This document shows, piece by piece, positions 1 through 27,624 of a stretch of DNA of 27,624 nucleotides. Each line of letters starts with the position of its first letter. The stretch's first letter is position 1. Source of the stretch: a virus (Duplodnaviria > Heunggongvirae > Uroviricota > Caudoviricetes); IMG/VR virus record IMGVR_UViG_2565956708_000008. One strand, given 5' to 3'. Made by a program: the position numbers and the translations under genes. Below the pieces are notes generated by a model. It searched no databases. It was given only the letters and a program-made list of their open reading frames with translations, and was not told the origin of the DNA.

Positions 1-1
1 C

Positions 2-95
2 GTTGACGGACTTCGGGGGAAAAACGAGTATTTTTAGTCATCCTGTTTACCTCTTTCTCAGGAAGTTTAGTCTCCAGGATTCCCGGGGCGGTTCA
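2..95 (-). mobile_element. IS3-family insertion sequence, left end (terminal inverted repeat plus start of orfA reading leftwards out of the window)
   Basis: Positions 2..95 are the exact reverse complement of 27531..27624. The element end is TGAACCGCCCCGGG... and the minus-strand ATG at 41 opens MTKNTRFSPEVRQ, which I recall as an IS629/IS1203-type OrfA N-terminus. Confidence 0.7.
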
Positions 96-304
96 ATACG
101 TTGATCTTGTTTGTATATGACCCGGATTGCTACATAAATAATCCTTTGGGCGTGAAAACCGATCTGGAATCTAAAGACGCGGAAGGAAAAGTGAAGGTTG
201 TTATTGCGCAGTTCTGACACGCTTAAGTGTCACCTTACAGGATTAGGTTTGCGGCCGTGCCAGCAGGACGAGCATGAAAAAGGCCGCTGGCACGGCCGGA
301 TTTG

Positions 305-598
305 TCATCTTTGCCAGGTCAAATCAAAATCTACGTGAAAATCCGCAGGCTTAAGCTCGCAACTGCCACCACGCCCAATTAACGACGTTATGTTTACAAC
401 GTTTGAACCTGTTGAGATGGCAAGTTGAGTGTCATCTGTAAACGTGATGATTAGCATTTCAGTCTGATGAACCTGTACTCCAGTTTTCTGAAAACCAATC
501 TGGACAGATTTCACCGTTTTCCCAACCATTTCACGGGCTTGATTGATAGAGTAATTAGCTTCAACTTGTAGGTCATTCCTGAACTTGGGTAGTGTCAT
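305..598 (-). CDS. hypothetical protein, 97 aa, no recognisable motif
   Basis: ORF from the six-frame track; same strand as and downstream of the GIY-YIG gene; followed by a 12-bp perfect-stem hairpin at 253..297. Confidence 0.45.
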   Translation of the reverse strand: MTLPKFRNDLQVEANYSINQAREMVGKTVKSVQIGFQKTGVQVHQTEMLIITFTDDTQLAISTGSNVVNITSLIGRGGSCELKPADFHVDFDLTWQR

Positions 599-808
599 TT
601 TACATCCTCTTTAGTGAAGTTTTCGCTATTTAAATCAGCAGCATTCCTTTTAAATCACTGGCATGTCAGCAGTGGATAGTCTGAGTGTAACGTCCAGTGA
701 GGGGAATAAATATTGGTCAGACTTTGCACAAAAGAGCCAACTATCGCGGGCTCTCTCTCATCATGTGCGAAAATTGACCACAATATGAAATCCAGTTCCA
801 TTCCGAAA

Positions 809-1633
<825 letters not shown>

Positions 1634-1742
1634 TCAATTGACAACTTATAATCCCTACTAGTTAGCATTATGATTTCCAGAGTGAGGAATATAAAAATCT
1701 CTGTTTCTGGCACATAACAGCCCTTAAGATCGTAGCTCGCCA

Positions 1743-1789
1743 TCATGGGGTGTCGGGGGGCGGAGGTTCAAATCCTCTCGTGCCGACCA
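1743..1789 (+). other. 3' fragment of tRNA-Pro (T-arm, acceptor 3' strand, CCA); probable att core repeat, not a complete tRNA gene
   Basis: TCATGGGGTGTCGGGGGGCGGAGGTTCAAATCCTCTCGTGCCGACCA matches the 3' ~47 nt of enterobacterial tRNA-Pro(GGG) as I recall it, with one mismatch. The 30 nt upstream do not match the tRNA 5' half. Confidence 0.6.
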
Positions 1790-1803
1790 AAAATCCCTTA
1801 AGA

Positions 1804-1829
1804 ACCAGCCTATTATGGCTGGTTTTTTT
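1804..1829 (+). terminator. rho-independent terminator directly after the tRNA-Pro fragment
   Basis: Stem ACCAGCC / GGCTGGT with loop TATTAT, followed by a run of seven T. Confidence 0.65.
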
Positions 1830-1969
1830 ATGATTGTTTTTTATGCGGAGAAATACCGGGGAATAATTGGGGTAAAACACCTTTAGGCTATTCACTTAGC
1901 CTACCACCATCAAAATCTTTCCGAATGTATCCATCTCTTTTTTCTTATGCAGCTAAAACGAAGTCTTGA

Positions 1970-2017
1970 TACTGTTTATTTACACAGATAAGAATAATAC
2001 TGTCTACAAACGCAGTA
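1970..2017. promoter_or_regulatory. two tandem LexA (SOS) boxes upstream of the DinI-like gene
   Basis: Box 1 at 1970..1989 is TACTGTTTATTTACACAGAT (CTGT-N8-ACAG). Box 2 at 1998..2017 is TACTGTCTACAAACGCAGTA (CTGT-N8-GCAG, one mismatch). Confidence 0.55.
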
Positions 2018-2030
2018 CAAAAGAAGTGTT

Positions 2031-2209
2031 ATGCGTATTGAGATCTCCATAGCCAAAGACAAAATGACCAAATGCCAAACGGCGCTGTGGACGCGTTAAA
2101 GGAAGAATTAACCCAACACATTGGCAAGCGTTATGACGATGTGGAGATGATCGTAAAAGCCACCAGCAACGATAGTTTTTCAGTTAGACATACTGCAGAT
2201 AAAGATTGA
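2031..2209 (+). pseudogene. DinI-like protein, frameshifted
   Basis: Frame 1 gives [14 protein letters not shown] then a stop. The next frame continues (M)[44 protein letters not shown]. Together these align to DinI (MRIEVTIAKTSPLPAGAIDALAGEL...) as I remember it. The shift lies near 2066..2074. Confidence 0.5.
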
Positions 2210-2573
2210 GCTAAAACTTTCGTTCAGGAAACTCTGAATGATACCTGAGAGTCTACTGAAGAGTTGTTTGTTCACTAGTTAGCACGTAGGAAATCATTCA
2301 ATACTCGCACTATCGGAAGTTCACCAGCCAGTCGTAGCACGTCCTTGCAAACGACGTGCCTACGGTTTCAATCACCTCTCACCATCAATTCTATCAATAA
2401 TAATTAAACAGCGCCTAGACAAAATAAATAACAACAAGTCAACAACCTCGACAGGATGCCGATGGGATGATGAAGAGATAAGAAAGAATAACCAGTAAAG
2501 CCCTAAAACGTCAGCGTTCAGACGCGTTTTTTACTTAATCGGTAACAAATACGTTGTATCATAGCAAAATAAA

Positions 2574-4523
2574 ATGATTGTTCTAAATCAGATTAACTCC
2601 TCACTTTTGTACAATGTCGCTTACAGGTATACCATGAAATCCGAGACGCTAACTGTCCAACAACTTTTTCAAGACCGCCGACAATACTGTGTTCCATTCT
2701 ATCAACGTGCCTATGTATGGACTCAGCAAGACCAGTGGTCAGCTCTACTGGAGGATATCCTAGAGAAAGTACAATCCCGGCTCTCGGGTACAAAACCAAC
2801 TCCCCATTTCCTTGGTGCGGTTGTACTGGAACCTCAATCAAAAAAAGGATTATTAGGTGTAGATTCCATACATATTATTGATGGTCAGCAACGATTGACC
2901 ACTCTTCAATATGTTCTGGCATCCATCCGATTAGCATTACGTGCTACGGATCTTTCCAGCTTAGAGGCTCTCATTTCGCCTTGCCTGAAAAACTCAAACG
3001 AAGACACAATGCGAAATAAAGAAGTAGAACGCTTCAAACTGTGGCCAACTTTTCGGGATCAAACTCATTTTATTCAAAGTTTTAATGTTGAAAATATTGA
3101 CGATCTCCGGGACGTATTCTCTGATAGTTTCACGCAGCATGGTACGTTGCGTAAGCATTTTAATCACCCGCCATCACTAGAAGCATTATGTTTTTTTACT
3201 GAAGCCTTTATAAAATGGATTAAAATAGAAAACCACTCACCACAAGAAAATGCTGTAGCTCTAATTGAGGCTGTCTTAACAGATCTGAAACTGGTAAGCA
3301 TATTTCTCGAAGCTGAAGATGATGCCCAAATAATTTTTGAAACATTAAATGGGCGAGGGGCGGAACTTCATGCTACGGATCTTATTCGCAACTATATCTT
3401 TATGTGCGCTGAGCATGAAAATATTAATGCTATTGAATTATATGAAAATGAGTGGAAGAGCTTTGAAGATAAATACTGGTCGGAAAAACAACGCCGTGGA
3501 CGTATTAATAAACCACGCATGGAGTGGCTAGTACATGCGACATTGCAATCAGAAAGGCAACGTGAAATTGATCTGTCTCGCCTTTACAATGAGTATCGTG
3601 ATTATGTAAGTAAGGACTTGTCTTCACAACGAGCAGATCTGCAAGTAAAGCGCCTCAAACAATATGCATCACAATATAAAGAATTGGTTGATGGTTTTGG
3701 CACAACCCCCATCTCACACTTTGGATATCGCATCGCAGACTATGATGTGACGACACTTTATCCGCTTGCTTTGTTCATTTCGATAGCTAACATCGCTGAT
3801 GATGAGAAAGCAGCCATGTATAATGATCTTGTCTCCTACGTAGTACGAAGAGCCGTATGTGGCCTGACGCCAAAGAATTACAACAATGTATTTATGAATG
3901 TATTGCGGCACTTGGCTAAAACGGAAATTTCCAGTGTTGAGTTACGTAATATCCTCAATAACTTAAATGGCGAAGCCTCACGTTGGCCTGGTGACTCAGA
4001 ATTTCTCAACGCTTGCATCAATGCTCCACTTTATCCTGGCAGGCTCGACGCACCGAAAATGCGCTCAATGTTAACGGAACTTGAAAGAGAACTTTGTCGC
4101 CAAGTAAAGACAGAAAAGCCTGATGTTCCAAATCTTTCTAATCTCGATATCGATCATCTTATGCCTCAAAGTTGGTATTCCTGTTGGCCTCTCGAAAATG
4201 GTCGTATGGTGACAAATTCAGATGCTACGGTATTGAACCAAATTGTTCTGTCTGGAACCGATCTTACCCCTGAACAGCTACTGGTAAGGAAACGGCAACA
4301 AGCGATATCTACTTTGGGAAATCTAACTTTGCTTAACCTTAGCGTAAACCGTTCTGTTCAGAATGCTGTATTTCTGAAAAAACGTGATGCTCTCATCGTC
4401 CACACCAATCTACGACTGAACATTCCACTTATAGTTAAGGATAAATGGGATGAGGATGAAATCCTGGAGCGGGGTAAAAAGTTGGGGGAAATTGCATTGA
4501 AAGTATGGCCAAAACACGATTAA
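2574..4523 (+). CDS. GmrSD-like type IV restriction / defence protein (N-terminal DUF262 domain, C-terminal DUF1524 His-Me finger nuclease domain)
   Basis: N-terminal FYQRAYVWT and IIDGQQRLTTLQYVL (DGQQR signature of DUF262). C-terminal DIDHLMPQSW with downstream LGNLTLLNLSVNRSVQN. The start is more likely the internal ATG at 2634 (MKSETLTVQQLF...), which has an AGG 9 nt upstream. Confidence 0.8.
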   Translation: MIVLNQINSSLLYNVAYRYTMKSETLTVQQLFQDRRQYCVPFYQRAYVWTQQDQWSALLEDILEKVQSRLSGTKPTPHFLGAVVLEPQSKKGLLGVDSIHIIDGQQRLTTLQYVLASIRLALRATDLSSLEALISPCLKNSNEDTMRNKEVERFKLWPTFRDQTHFIQSFNVENIDDLRDVFSDSFTQHGTLRKHFNHPPSLEALCFFTEAFIKWIKIENHSPQENAVALIEAVLTDLKLVSIFLEAEDDAQIIFETLNGRGAELHATDLIRNYIFMCAEHENINAIELYENEWKSFEDKYWSEKQRRGRINKPRMEWLVHATLQSERQREIDLSRLYNEYRDYVSKDLSSQRADLQVKRLKQYASQYKELVDGFGTTPISHFGYRIADYDVTTLYPLALFISIANIADDEKAAMYNDLVSYVVRRAVCGLTPKNYNNVFMNVLRHLAKTEISSVELRNILNNLNGEASRWPGDSEFLNACINAPLYPGRLDAPKMRSMLTELERELCRQVKTEKPDVPNLSNLDIDHLMPQSWYSCWPLENGRMVTNSDATVLNQIVLSGTDLTPEQLLVRKRQQAISTLGNLTLLNLSVNRSVQNAVFLKKRDALIVHTNLRLNIPLIVKDKWDEDEILERGKKLGEIALKVWPKHD

Positions 4524-4547
4524 TGCAATTAATAAAATGATTATAGT

Positions 4548-4567
4548 GGCCTTACATTAGTAAGGCC
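4548..4567 (+). terminator. hairpin downstream of the GmrSD-like gene, possible terminator
   Basis: Stem GGCCTTAC / GTAAGGCC with loop ATTA; no clear T-run follows, so this is weak. Confidence 0.3.
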
Positions 4568-5644
4568 GCTACTCACTATTAAATACTTTAATTTGCATCA
4601 AGAACAGCAGTGTCAGCCCTAGGTCTCGGACTTTGTACCGCTTATCTTGTCTTCAAAAATCAGCTCGCATCCTGCACAGTTCAGCGCATTACGTTGTAGA
4701 TCTGTGTTCTGGTCATTTGTTGACACACGTACATAGCCAATAAGCATGGTAGATCTCCCTGACAAAAGCAGGAATGATGCCATTTGCTCGTTATTTCTGC
4801 ATTTTCATAAACGTTGGTTTGGGAGAAGGGGCAGCATGGCCTGTTGGTGAGGCTGAACAACAACCTCCAGACACGTCGCCCTCAAGCGGTCCTGGATGCA
4901 ACGGTAATGTTGTTATTGCTGAAGCTGACGCGGTACTGACACAGGTTGATACGGCAAATATATGCCCCGCATTACGTGTTAAGGGAATTCGTGGCAATGA
5001 TGATGCGCTCAGCGTTTCTAAAAAGTCTGATATGCCGTCAGCAAAAGAGCCATTTGTAGTTCCTATTTATGTGCTGGTAGCTATCATCCCGGTATCTTTG
5101 ACCGCTTAAGGTGGTGAATCTAGCGATACAGCAGGTTCTGGCTCGACCACTGTTAGCATTTCTGCCACTGTCGGTGGTAACAAGACCGTGGCGTGTACAG
5201 TGGCCGATACACTGATCGATACCTTTCCTTCAGACATCGCCTTTAACTCGATCGTGAGAGCAGGATAATGGATAACGCAGTATTAAATAGTGGCGTAAGT
5301 ACAAGTATTTCACTGCATAAAATGTTTTCTGAATATGATGGTGCAACAAGGGTTCATGTTGCCACTATAAGAGAATCTCGTGCCACTGGTGAGGGATTTC
5401 CGGCATTGCCTCCTCAGGGGAAACAAGTTGTACCTAAGGGTTCTGAACCTATATGATGGACTAATAATCCAACTCCTTCAAAATAGGTGGAAGAGCAGAG
5501 GGCTGAAATGAACTAAAAAACTTTAGCGTCAGAATCAAAAAACATCACCAAAACCCATGAGTACCCCGGCAATACAACCACTAGTCCCCTAATAAGCGAA
5601 TAACTTACGTAGGATGATTCGTGGCTGGAGTATCAGGCCGAAGT

Positions 5645-5916
5645 GCAGCAGAGCGACACTGTCTGTGCGGCAGAAGTACAGCGTCCGTCGCTTATTGATG
5701 CTCCGGTCAGATGCAATGCTCTGCTTTAGCGGAAATTGTTGGCGTGACCGCGGCAATGGCATGCAGAAAAGAGCTAACTCAACTCTTTTCTGCCTGCAAC
5801 TGATGCGGTCAGGGCAACAATTACAACTGAAGCGGAGGGAGGGATCTGACCGCAACTTCAAGCAGCGTATGACGCTCTATTTCTGCCGCACATGCTGTGT
5901 CGACATGCTCTGCTGC
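5645..5916. repeat. long imperfect palindrome of about 270 bp, two roughly 75 percent complementary arms around a perfect central hairpin
   Basis: GCAGCAGAGC at 5645..5654 is the reverse complement of 5907..5916, and the arms share blocks such as TGTGCGGCAGAA and GGTCAGAT. The central hairpin at 5763..5793 is GCAGAAAAGAG, loop CTAACTCAA, then CTCTTTTCTGC. Confidence 0.6.
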
Positions 5917-6287
5917 GTCCTGAGACACCAACTACGAATTATACTATGCAACGTCTTCGCTTTTTAGGCGAACAGTAGCTGTTTTTTCGGGCCACTGATC
6001 CGTTTTTGTGAATTTATTGAATTCTGAAACTACAGTGATTTTTACGATTTCACCCGTAAGCACCGCCACATCTTTCGAAGGAGGTAAGTTAACAGACCGT
6101 CAGGGACGTCAACCACCCTCAGCTCCAACTGCTGCCCCTAGTGGGTAAAAAGCCAGAAATCCATCACATGCTTCTATGTTTACATCAATAATGTCAACAG
6201 GAAGCCTTCTCGCACCATCATAGTCTTGAAACATTATTTGCAGAGCATATGTTTTAATACGTCGACAAATTAATACTGAGTTCACTA

Positions 6288-6485
6288 TTACCGTGCAATG
6301 ACGAAATATTTAACTGCAGTGTTTCGTGGAAGGGTTTCGATGAGGTGTTTGTCGACTTTACCCAACATGGAATGATTCTTACCGTCGGCAACAAAAATGC
6401 AACCCGCGGTCGCGTAAATCCCTGTTGAATTACTGAATATAGCACCATAGCCGCTCGTTGATCCCAAAAGGATAGCGCCCAGCAC
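6288..6485 (-). pseudogene. tail fibre distal segment, in frame with the upstream tail fibre gene but separated from it by an amber codon
   Basis: Same frame as 6486..7031 and continues immediately after TAG at 6486..6488; encodes GSTSGYGAIFSNSTGIYATAG, typical Gly/Ser/Thr-rich fibre sequence. Confidence 0.4.
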
Positions 6486-7031
6486 CTAAATAGTACCTAC
6501 AGAGGGCAATTTTGTTGAGAGCATATAAGACTTATAATCACCGCCGCTGGCATCAGCCCAACCAGTCATTCCATCCACCGGTAATTGACCCCATATATTT
6601 GCAGGAACAGTCTGAGCCATTTGCGCGTCAGGTTGACCAATCAAAACATCTCCGTTGCCTTTCGTCAACGTTGATAACGACGTGGCAGAGATTCGTGTTT
6701 CCGGCACGCCCACAGTTCGTTTTGCGGCTTCTCCCAAACCAAGGTTTTCGAGAGCCGTTTTCACCGTGCCGTCCGATTTGATATCGCTAAACGGATTCTT
6801 GCGGCTTAACAGCAGCGCACGAAGCGCGGTAAGCAGCTGGTCGTGCCGCGCCTTCTCCAGACTGGCACCGGATGCCTCCACCACGCTGCAGAGTTCTTCC
6901 TGCAACATGTCAAAGTAGTCATCATCCAGATCGGTGGCAGGCGTGCCTGTCTGGGGGTTACCACGGGTAAAACCGTTCTTACCCGCGCCGAACTTATCCT
7001 TCTGCGCGGTTTTCGTGTCTATACGATGCAT
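6486..7031 (-). CDS. tail fibre protein, N-terminal (constant) part; apparently truncated by an in-frame TAG
   Basis: Position directly after the baseplate genes; Mu S / e14 StfP-like N-terminus ([21 protein letters not shown]...) by recollection. Confidence 0.6.
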
Positions 7032-27530: not shown

Positions 27531-27624
27531 TGAACCGCCCCGGGAATCCTGGAGACTAAACTTCCTGAGAAAGAGGTAAACAGGATGACTAAAAATACTC
27601 GTTTTTCCCCCGAAGTCCGTCAAC
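27531..27624 (+). mobile_element. IS3-family insertion sequence, left end (terminal inverted repeat plus start of orfA reading rightwards out of the window)
   Basis: TGAACCGCCCCGGGAATCCTGGAG... then ATG at 27585 opening MTKNTRFSPEVRQ; exact reverse complement of 2..95. Confidence 0.7.

What the first reader, a model, noticed from the sequence alone, without database searches (positions are those of the whole stretch)
2574..4523. Intact GmrSD-like type IV restriction gene in the tail-fibre-distal hotspot
DUF262 (DGQQR) and DUF1524 (DHxxP ... N ... N) signatures are both present in one 649-aa protein. It is the only clearly intact accessory gene in a region where the tail fibre and the DinI-like gene are degraded, which suggests selection for a defence function against modified-DNA phages. 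It occupies the same relative position as the type IV enzyme gene mcrA in prophage e14, as I recall that map.
Basis: partly seen in the sequence, partly recalled or inferred. Interest (0 to 1): 0.5.

Follow-up and report, generated by a model that had tools for sequence, protein, structure and literature searches.

The report
Known prophage GmrSD restriction gene (UTI89)

Summary
The ORF at 2574..4523 is real and intact. It passes both Pfam GmrSD profiles (N-terminal domain 7e-34, C-terminal domain 4e-20).

The true start is almost certainly the ATG at 2634, giving 629 aa rather than 649. A diverged allele has a stop codon inside the 20-codon extension.

The 629-aa protein is identical, residue for residue, to the published UTI89GmrSD (UTI89_C2960, the "UT enzyme"). 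It is 93.0% identical to the biochemically characterised Eco94GmrSD. All residues shown there to be essential are kept (D507, H508, N522, DGQQR).

The gene sits at the end of an SfII/e14-like prophage, just beyond a truncated pin invertase gene.

Purifying selection is supported by dN/dS of 0.12-0.16 between alleles. The "degraded tail fibre" does not support it. Window 4829..6727 is a base-by-base mixture of the two orientations of the invertible tail-fibre segment. That is an assembly or consensus artefact, not decay.

Caveat from the literature: the purified UT protein was inactive in vitro, and UTI89 carries a second, uncharacterised GmrSD paralog.

Verdict: correct identification of an already known gene; low interest.

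The parts
2634..4523 (+). gmrSD coding sequence, 629 aa plus stop. Equals UTI89_RS14420 / WP_000834402.1 / UTI89_C2960, the 'UT enzyme'.
   Evidence: The DNA is 100% identical to UTI89 and many related strains. RefSeq CDS coordinates agree. The protein is identical to the UTI89GmrSD sequence in He et al. 2015 Fig. S1. PADLOC mREase_IV scores 1415 bits over residues 21-649 of the long ORF, which covers model positions 1-629 of 629.
2574..2633 (+). In-frame upstream extension of 20 codons. Most likely 5' leader, not coding.
   Evidence: The allele in L004 has an in-frame TAA here. An AGGT lies about 7 nt before ATG 2634, and there is no Shine-Dalgarno-like sequence before ATG 2574.
2655..3401 (+). 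N-terminal GmrSD_N / DUF262 domain (ParB-like NTPase), with DGQQR at 2880..2894.
   Evidence: Pfam PF03235, E = 7.2e-34, covering profile positions 1-199 of 199. Motif position. The role of the motif in NTP hydrolysis was shown for BrxU (PMC8565348).
3984..4490 (+). C-terminal GmrSD_C / DUF1524 HNH (His-Me finger) nuclease domain. D507-H508 lie at 4152..4157 and N522 at 4197..4199.
   Evidence: Pfam PF07510, E = 3.8e-20. D507, H508 and N522 are conserved in register with Eco94GmrSD, where changing any of them to alanine abolishes cleavage.
4625..4747 (-). Remnant of the pin (Din-family DNA invertase) gene: the first 41 codons only.
   Evidence: RefSeq calls it 'recombinase family protein, missing C-terminus'. 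It is 95% identical to the 5' end of e14 pinE, and homology stops inside pin. The same junction is present in 306 genomes, the same number as carry gmrSD.
4809..4828 (.). Left crossover-site inverted repeat of the invertible tail-fibre segment. Its partner is 6728..6747.
   Evidence: 19 of 20 bases are complementary to the partner, about the symmetry centre x + y = 11556.
4829..6727 (.). Invertible tail-fibre segment. As given in the window it is a per-base mosaic of both orientations, that is, an artefact.
   Evidence: All 1890 tested positions equal either the UTI89 forward base or the inverted base. At the 1359 positions where the two differ, 636 are forward and 723 inverted, with geometric run lengths. 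There is no megablast match in 5426 genomes. Both pure orientations exist at 100% identity in complete genomes.
2031..2248 (+). DinI-like pseudogene upstream of gmrSD.
   Evidence: RefSeq marks it 'frameshifted; internal stop'. Stops are visible in the sequence.
1740..1797 (+). 3' fragment of a tRNA-Pro gene, followed by its terminator hairpin at 1800..1827. Probably an att-type scar marking the end of this prophage arm.
   Evidence: 96.6-98.2% identical to annotated tRNA-Pro genes. ARAGORN finds no complete tRNA. Terminator-like hairpin.

Best explanation
The gene is gmrSD of the UTI89 type (EcoUTI89GmrSD, the 'UT enzyme'). It encodes a stand-alone, single-chain type IV restriction endonuclease that depends on DNA modification. 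It is carried as cargo at the far end of an SfII/e14-like prophage.

Inferred mechanism, from family members:
- The N-terminal DUF262 / ParB-like domain binds and hydrolyses a nucleotide through its DGQQR motif.
- This drives a conformational or oligomeric cycle that licenses the nuclease.
- The C-terminal DUF1524 HNH nuclease (D507-H508, N522) then cleaves phage DNA carrying hydroxymethylcytosine with sugars attached.
- No methyltransferase partner is needed, because host DNA lacks the target modification.

Reported phenotype: it excludes T-even phages such as T2, T6 and RB69 but not T4, and it is immune to the T4 inhibitor IPI*.

Shown here: sequence identity, domains, motifs, genomic position, distribution and purifying selection.
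Taken from papers: the restriction spectrum and the catalytic residues.
Inferred: that the BrxU-type reaction cycle applies to this protein.
For: - Pfam GmrSD_N 7e-34 and GmrSD_C 4e-20, both full length.
- PADLOC mREase_IV scores 1415 bits end to end.
- The protein is identical to the published UTI89GmrSD and 93.0% identical to Eco94GmrSD. It keeps DGQQR, E271/E273/E278/K280 and D507/H508/N522.
- Eco94GmrSD is an ATP-stimulated nuclease acting on glc-5hmC and 5hmC DNA, and it is dead when D507, H508 or N522 is mutated. The UT enzyme is reported to restrict T2 and T6, not T4, and to be insensitive to IPI* (PMC4437046). It is also reported to restrict RB69 (PMC6024577).
- BrxU mutagenesis shows NTP binding and hydrolysis must precede HNH cleavage (PMC8565348).
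- dN/dS is 0.12-0.16 between three alleles.
- 300 of the 306 copies found in 5426 complete genomes are full length.
- No BREX, Ssp or Dnd genes lie nearby.
Against: - Purified UTI89_C2960 protein was monomeric and showed no cleavage of T4, T2 or T6 DNA under any buffer, NTP or metal condition tried (He et al. 2015 supplement).
- UTI89 carries a second, uncharacterised GmrSD paralog, UTI89_C5048. The primary paper that assigns the in vivo phenotype to this gene (Rifat et al. 2008) could not be read here.
- No promoter stands out above background upstream of the gene.
Confidence: 0.88

Rival explanations
1. The gene is intact but is not itself an active restriction enzyme. It may need a partner or an activating signal, and the T-even restriction seen in strain UTI89 may come from the paralog UTI89_C5048.
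For: The purified UT protein was inactive in vitro under all conditions tried, and the second paralog is uncharacterised. A two-gene GmrS1/GmrSD2 system that needs both proteins exists in ECOR17 (PMC12373910).
Against: All catalytic and NTPase residues are kept. dN/dS of about 0.15 indicates a constrained protein. No second DUF262 gene lies next to it. Secondary sources attribute IPI*-insensitive restriction to the 'UT enzyme' itself. The 93% relative Eco94GmrSD works alone.
Confidence: 0.08
2. It is a GmrSD-fold accessory nuclease of another defence system, such as a BrxU-like component of BREX or an SspE-like sensor of phosphorothioate, rather than a stand-alone type IV enzyme.
For: PADLOC also gives weaker hits to Orf5, HEC-06 and SspE models: 262 bits and below, with SspE at 58 bits and below.
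Against: The best model is mREase_IV at 1415 bits over the full length. Its neighbours are a dinI pseudogene, a pin remnant and tail-fibre genes, with no brx, ssp or dnd genes. The SspE hits cover only the first 120 or so residues of the shared DUF262 domain.
Confidence: 0.02
3. The protein is the 649-aa form read by the first stage, with a functional 20-residue N-terminal extension.
For: ATG 2574 is in frame with no intervening stop in this allele or in L005.
Against: The L004 allele has an in-frame TAA within the extension. RefSeq, the published protein and the PADLOC model all start at Met-21. A Shine-Dalgarno-like AGGT precedes 2634, and nothing similar precedes 2574.
Confidence: 0.04

Closest known systems
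EcoUTI89GmrSD (UTI89_C2960, 'UT enzyme'; WP_000834402.1)
   Same: Identical 629-aa sequence, identical DNA and the same prophage context.
   Different: Nothing in the gene itself. The window comes from another assembly: it has IS3-family ends at both termini and a scrambled invertible segment.
Eco94GmrSD / EcoCT596GmrSD (E. coli STEC_94C and CT596)
   Same: 93.0% identical, the same length, the same catalytic residues, and also carried on an SfII-like prophage next to tail-fibre genes.
   Different: There are 44 substitutions, 28 of them in residues 1-160. This first part of the gene is a more deeply diverged block: 74-90% nucleotide identity over roughly the first 540 nt, against 96-100% over most of the rest. 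The reported spectrum also differs. The CT and Eco94 enzymes restrict T4 lacking ip1 and are blocked by IPI*. The UT enzyme ignores T4 and is immune to IPI*.
BrxU (GmrSD-family enzyme of the Escherichia fergusonii plasmid BREX island; first solved structure of the family)
   Same: Same two-domain architecture, DUF262 with DGQQR plus DUF1524 with a DHxxP HNH motif. It supplies the mechanistic model in which NTP binding and hydrolysis precede cleavage.
   Different: The sequence is too distant for a phmmer hit. BrxU is embedded in a BREX locus, while this gene stands alone on a prophage. BrxU is an intertwined dimer that ATP splits into monomers, whereas the UT protein was reported monomeric as purified.
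McrA of cryptic prophage e14 (E. coli K-12)
   Same: It occupies the same cargo slot, after the tail-fibre inversion module and pin and next to the prophage end, in a related prophage. Both are type IV enzymes with an HNH nuclease (the HNH nature of McrA is from general knowledge).
   Different: The protein is unrelated outside the HNH motif and has no DUF262 domain. mcrA runs in the same direction as an intact pinE, while gmrSD converges on a truncated pin.
PDB 9jfl, 'DUF262 domain-containing protein' (596 aa)
   Same: The only solved structure detectable by sequence. E = 3.5e-8 over the N-terminal domain, including the DGQQR region.
   Different: Only a distant relative. The C-terminal match is not significant.

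Membership tests
GmrSD family of type IV restriction endonucleases | N-terminal DUF262 / GmrSD_N (ParB-like) domain with the DGQQR motif | tested here: met
   PF03235 scores 118.1 bits against a cut-off of 33.2, over the full profile. DGQQR lies at residues 83-87.
GmrSD family of type IV restriction endonucleases | C-terminal DUF1524 / GmrSD_C HNH domain with the (I/L/V)(E/D)H(I/L/V)xPQ motif and a downstream catalytic Asn | tested here: met
   PF07510 scores 72.6 bits against a cut-off of 23. IDHLMPQ starts at 506, and D507, H508 and N522 align with the residues essential in Eco94GmrSD.
GmrSD family of type IV restriction endonucleases | Both domains in one polypeptide, joined by a linker of 200-400 residues (the single-chain form) | tested here: met
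   The domains lie at residues 8-256 and 451-619 of one 629-aa ORF. The linker length fits the description in PMC4619093.
GmrSD family of type IV restriction endonucleases | Cleaves modified DNA (hmC or glycosyl-hmC) but not unmodified DNA; stimulated by NTP | not testable with these tools
   From the literature only. This is shown in vitro for the 93% relative Eco94GmrSD. For this exact protein, in vivo restriction of T2, T6 and RB69 is reported, but the purified protein was inactive in vitro.
GmrSD family of type IV restriction endonucleases | Stand-alone gene with no cognate methyltransferase | tested here: met
   Its neighbours are a dinI pseudogene and a pin remnant. The nearest methyltransferase is the prophage N-6-adenine methyltransferase about 26 kb away in the early region.
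   e14 has mcrA there. The UTI89 type has gmrSD. Three prophages with an intact pinE have a LEM-3-like GIY-YIG gene. One has nothing, with pinE abutting the host gene pphA. This is a small sample of 6 loci.

The most novel reading that the evidence does not exclude
The first 180 or so codons of gmrSD, within the DUF262 domain, behave as an exchangeable block. Between the UT-type and CT/Eco94-type alleles this block has dS of about 0.65, against about 0.10 for the rest of the gene. It also holds 28 of the 44 amino-acid differences. A third allele (L005) pairs a UT-like N-terminal block with a stretch around nucleotides 540-900 that differs from both other alleles. If this block determines immunity to injected Ip inhibitors, or the sugar specificity, then GmrSD alleles diversify by swapping modules rather than by point mutation. 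That would give a simple, testable rule for predicting which T-even phages a strain excludes.
Probability: 0.3. Interest if true: 0.35.

Novelty: already known. Interest (0 to 1): 0.1.

Why it matters
The gene matters as a working example of prophage-borne defence against T-even phages with hypermodified DNA. It is also one side of the arms race between GmrSD enzymes and the internal-protein (Ip) inhibitors that these phages inject. All of this is already in the literature for this exact sequence.

The practical value of this check is twofold. First, it corrects the gene model to 629 aa. Second, it shows that the neighbouring 'decayed tail fibre' is an artefact: the invertible segment was present in both orientations when the consensus was made. 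That region therefore cannot be used as evidence of prophage decay or of differential selection.

Tried and rejected
- NCBIfam gave no hit for the protein.
- ARAGORN found no tRNA or tmRNA in the window.
- Rfam gave only a chance snoRNA match below its threshold, inside the ORF.
- The sigma-70 promoter and terminator scan of 1700-4850 was at background level: 9 promoter-like sites against 7.6 expected. No promoter could be assigned to gmrSD.
- I searched for a direct repeat of the tRNA-Pro fragment at the integrase end of the UTI89 prophage, to define attL and attR. Only chance matches of 10-12 nt turned up.
- phmmer against PDB sequences, even at E = 10, found only 9jfl and not BrxU.
- tblastn against 50,697 phage records found only distant relatives, at most 28% identity over long matches. 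No sequenced free phage carries this allele.
- The primary papers on the UT enzyme (Rifat et al. 2008, PMC2255585; Bair et al. 2007, PMC1868451) are not held. The in vivo spectrum is therefore cited second-hand.
- I first considered that 4829..6727 was natural divergence, a simple inversion, or random in-silico mutation. I rejected all three. The substitution spectrum is uniform, with no indels and no codon-phase bias. The reverse complement is not identical. Every base equals one of the two orientations.
- I did not run the large homology searches or a structure prediction, because the identity of the gene was already settled.

Full report
**Observation**

An uninterrupted ORF runs 2574..4523 on the + strand. 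It contains DGQQR and DIDHLMP. Pfam scores:
- GmrSD_N (PF03235, formerly DUF262): 118.1 bits, E = 7.2e-34, over the whole profile.
- GmrSD_C (PF07510, formerly DUF1524): 72.6 bits, E = 3.8e-20.

The PADLOC model 'mREase_IV' matches residues 21-649 to model positions 1-629 of 629, at 1415 bits.

**Gene model**

The real start is the ATG at 2634, giving 629 aa.
- RefSeq annotates that start in UTI89.
- The published protein starts MKSETL.
- An AGGT lies about 7 nt upstream of 2634, and nothing similar precedes 2574.
- In a 93.5%-identical allele from strain 82.0312, the 20-codon extension contains an in-frame TAA.

**Identity**

Window 2400-4700 is 100% identical to E. coli UTI89, S88, IHE3034, NU14 and many related strains. 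The 629-aa translation equals, residue for residue, the 'UTI89GmrSD' sequence printed in Supplementary Fig. S1 of He et al. 2015 (PMC4437046). That sequence is UTI89_C2960, the 'UT enzyme'.

It differs from Eco94GmrSD at 44 positions, so it is 93.0% identical. It keeps every residue that paper found important:
- D507, H508 and N522, where alanine mutants have no nuclease activity.
- E271, E273, E278 and K280.
- DGQQR at 83-87.

**What the literature says about this exact protein**

- The UT enzyme is a fused single-chain GmrSD. It is insensitive to the T4 inhibitor IPI*. It does not restrict T4 or T4 lacking IPI, but it restricts other T-even phages such as T2 and T6 (PMC4437046). It also restricts RB69, whose DNA carries arabinosyl-hmC (PMC6024577).
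- The prophage could not be induced.
- A second paralog, UTI89_C5048, is uncharacterised.
- I could not read the primary 2008 paper that assigns the phenotype to the gene. This keeps a small rival alive, in which the gene is intact but not sufficient on its own.

**Mechanism (inferred from the family)**

Eco94GmrSD is an ATP-stimulated nuclease that needs Mg2+ or Mn2+. It cuts DNA containing glc-5hmC or 5hmC, preferring long substrates, and cuts between two modified cytosines 17-23 bp apart.

For BrxU, mutagenesis showed three things (PMC8565348):
- The DUF262 domain binds and hydrolyses nucleotides through the DGQQR motif.
- This step must come before cleavage.
- The DUF1524 DH...N residues do the cutting.

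Machnicka et al. place DUF262 in the ParB/Srx fold and DUF1524 in the HNH (His-Me finger) superfamily (PMC4619093). I infer the same order of events for this protein. No methyltransferase is needed, because the host lacks the target modification.

**Context**

The window is the late region of an SfII/SfV/e14-like prophage. Tail, head and terminase genes are 97-98% identical to SfII and SfI, and UTI89 annotates a full gene set.

Read away from the tail genes, the order is:
- ymfQ
- tail-fibre gene
- invertible segment
- pin remnant of 41 codons (4625..4747, - strand)
- gmrSD (+ strand, converging on pin)
- dinI pseudogene (2031..2248)
- a 58-nt 3' fragment of tRNA-Pro with its terminator (1740..1827)

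**Comparison with e14**

In K-12, e14 reads ymfQ - stfP - tfaP - tfaE - stfE' - pinE - mcrA - attR. The UTI89 prophage shares several blocks with e14 at 95-98% identity. These include the first 122 nt of pinE and the crossover site upstream of it. Homology ends inside pin.

In three other prophages with an intact pinE, the slot holds a LEM-3-like GIY-YIG gene. In one, nothing follows pinE. This is a variable cargo slot, although I sampled only six loci.

**Distribution and selection**

- The gene is present in 306 of 5426 complete E. coli genomes, always on the chromosome. 300 copies are full length.
- They fall into three identity bands: 147 genomes at 99% or above, 75 at 95-99%, and 84 at 90-95%.
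- The 305-nt stretch spanning the gmrSD 3' flank, the pin remnant and the crossover site is found at full length in the same number of genomes, 306. This fits a single ancestral acquisition.
- A 93.5% allele sits in the same module at a different chromosomal site.
- dN/dS between three alleles is 0.12-0.16. This is direct evidence of purifying selection.
- Differences cluster in roughly the first 540 nt: 74-90% nucleotide identity there against 96-100% over most of the rest, and dS of 0.65 against 0.10 for codons 1-160 versus the remainder. dN/dS is no higher there. This looks like a recombined, older block rather than local positive selection.
- No phage record carries a close relative.

**The 'degraded tail fibre'**

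Window 96-4833 and 6728-27530 match UTI89 at 99.98% with the same offset. The 1.9 kb between them is only 62% identical in register, with no indels.
- Substitutions are spread evenly over all 12 types and all three codon phases.
- The segment has no megablast match in any of 5426 genomes.
- The window segment resembles both the UTI89 segment and its reverse complement, while the UTI89 segment does not resemble its own reverse complement.
- With the symmetry centre at x + y = 11556, all 1890 tested positions equal either the forward base or the inverted base.
- Where the two differ, the choice is a coin flip: 636 forward and 723 inverted, with geometric run lengths.
- The mosaic starts and ends exactly at a 20-bp inverted repeat (4809..4828 and 6728..6747), which is the invertase crossover site.
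- Both pure orientations exist at 100% identity in complete genomes. The forward junction is found in 160 genomes, including NU14 and ZJ3920 (UTI89 itself supplied the forward reference). The inverted junction is found in 171, including PMV-1, IHE3034 and APEC O1.

So the segment as written cannot exist in a cell. It is a consensus of a mixed population, or was otherwise constructed. In real relatives the tail-fibre genes are intact. The argument 'intact gene among decayed neighbours' therefore fails for the tail fibre. It holds only for dinI and pin.

**Verdict**

The gene is already named, cloned and studied, so novelty is 'already known' and interest is low. The least-explored point is the exchangeable N-terminal block and whether it sets inhibitor immunity or sugar specificity.

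Noticed in passing
window 4829..6727: The invertible tail-fibre segment is written as a per-base 47:53 mixture of its two orientations. Every base matches one or the other, with no indels, and all ORFs in it are broken. This is an assembly or consensus artefact, or a constructed sequence. It is not biological decay.
   Followed up: yes
window 4625..4747 with 4809..4828 and 6728..6747: The pin gene next to the segment is only a 41-codon stump. Even so, closely related complete genomes carry the segment in either orientation (160 forward, 171 inverted). Inversion must therefore be catalysed in trans by a Din-family invertase encoded elsewhere.
   Followed up: partly
window 1..95 and 27531..27624: Both ends of the window are the same IS3-family terminal sequence, in inverted orientation. 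They interrupt UTI89_RS14400 on the left and the antitermination gene on the right. No complete E. coli genome has this arrangement, which looks like a draft contig bounded by IS copies.
   Followed up: partly
window 809..1582 (- strand): An intact LEM-3-like GIY-YIG nuclease gene. It is 85% identical at protein level to the gene that occupies the slot beyond pinE in O157:H7 and other prophages. It is a possible further defence or cargo gene, and its function is unknown.
   Followed up: partly
window 1740..1827: A 58-nt 3' fragment of tRNA-Pro with its terminator hairpin. It lies between the GIY-YIG gene and the dinI pseudogene, although the locus is next to ssrA in UTI89. It is probably an att scar from a tRNA-Pro-integrating element. 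No matching repeat was found at the integrase end.
   Followed up: partly
window 2634..3170 (gmrSD codons 1-180): This part of gmrSD is a far more diverged block between alleles: 74-90% nucleotide identity and dS of about 0.65, against 96-100% and about 0.10 downstream. dN/dS is similar in both parts, so alleles appear to be recombination mosaics.
   Followed up: partly
E. coli MS20654 (NZ_CP082083.1) and APEC IMT5155 (NZ_CP005930.1), same gene: In these genomes the gmrSD gene is split by an insertion sequence: IS3-family in MS20654 and IS66-family in IMT5155. Occasional natural knock-outs therefore exist.
   Followed up: no
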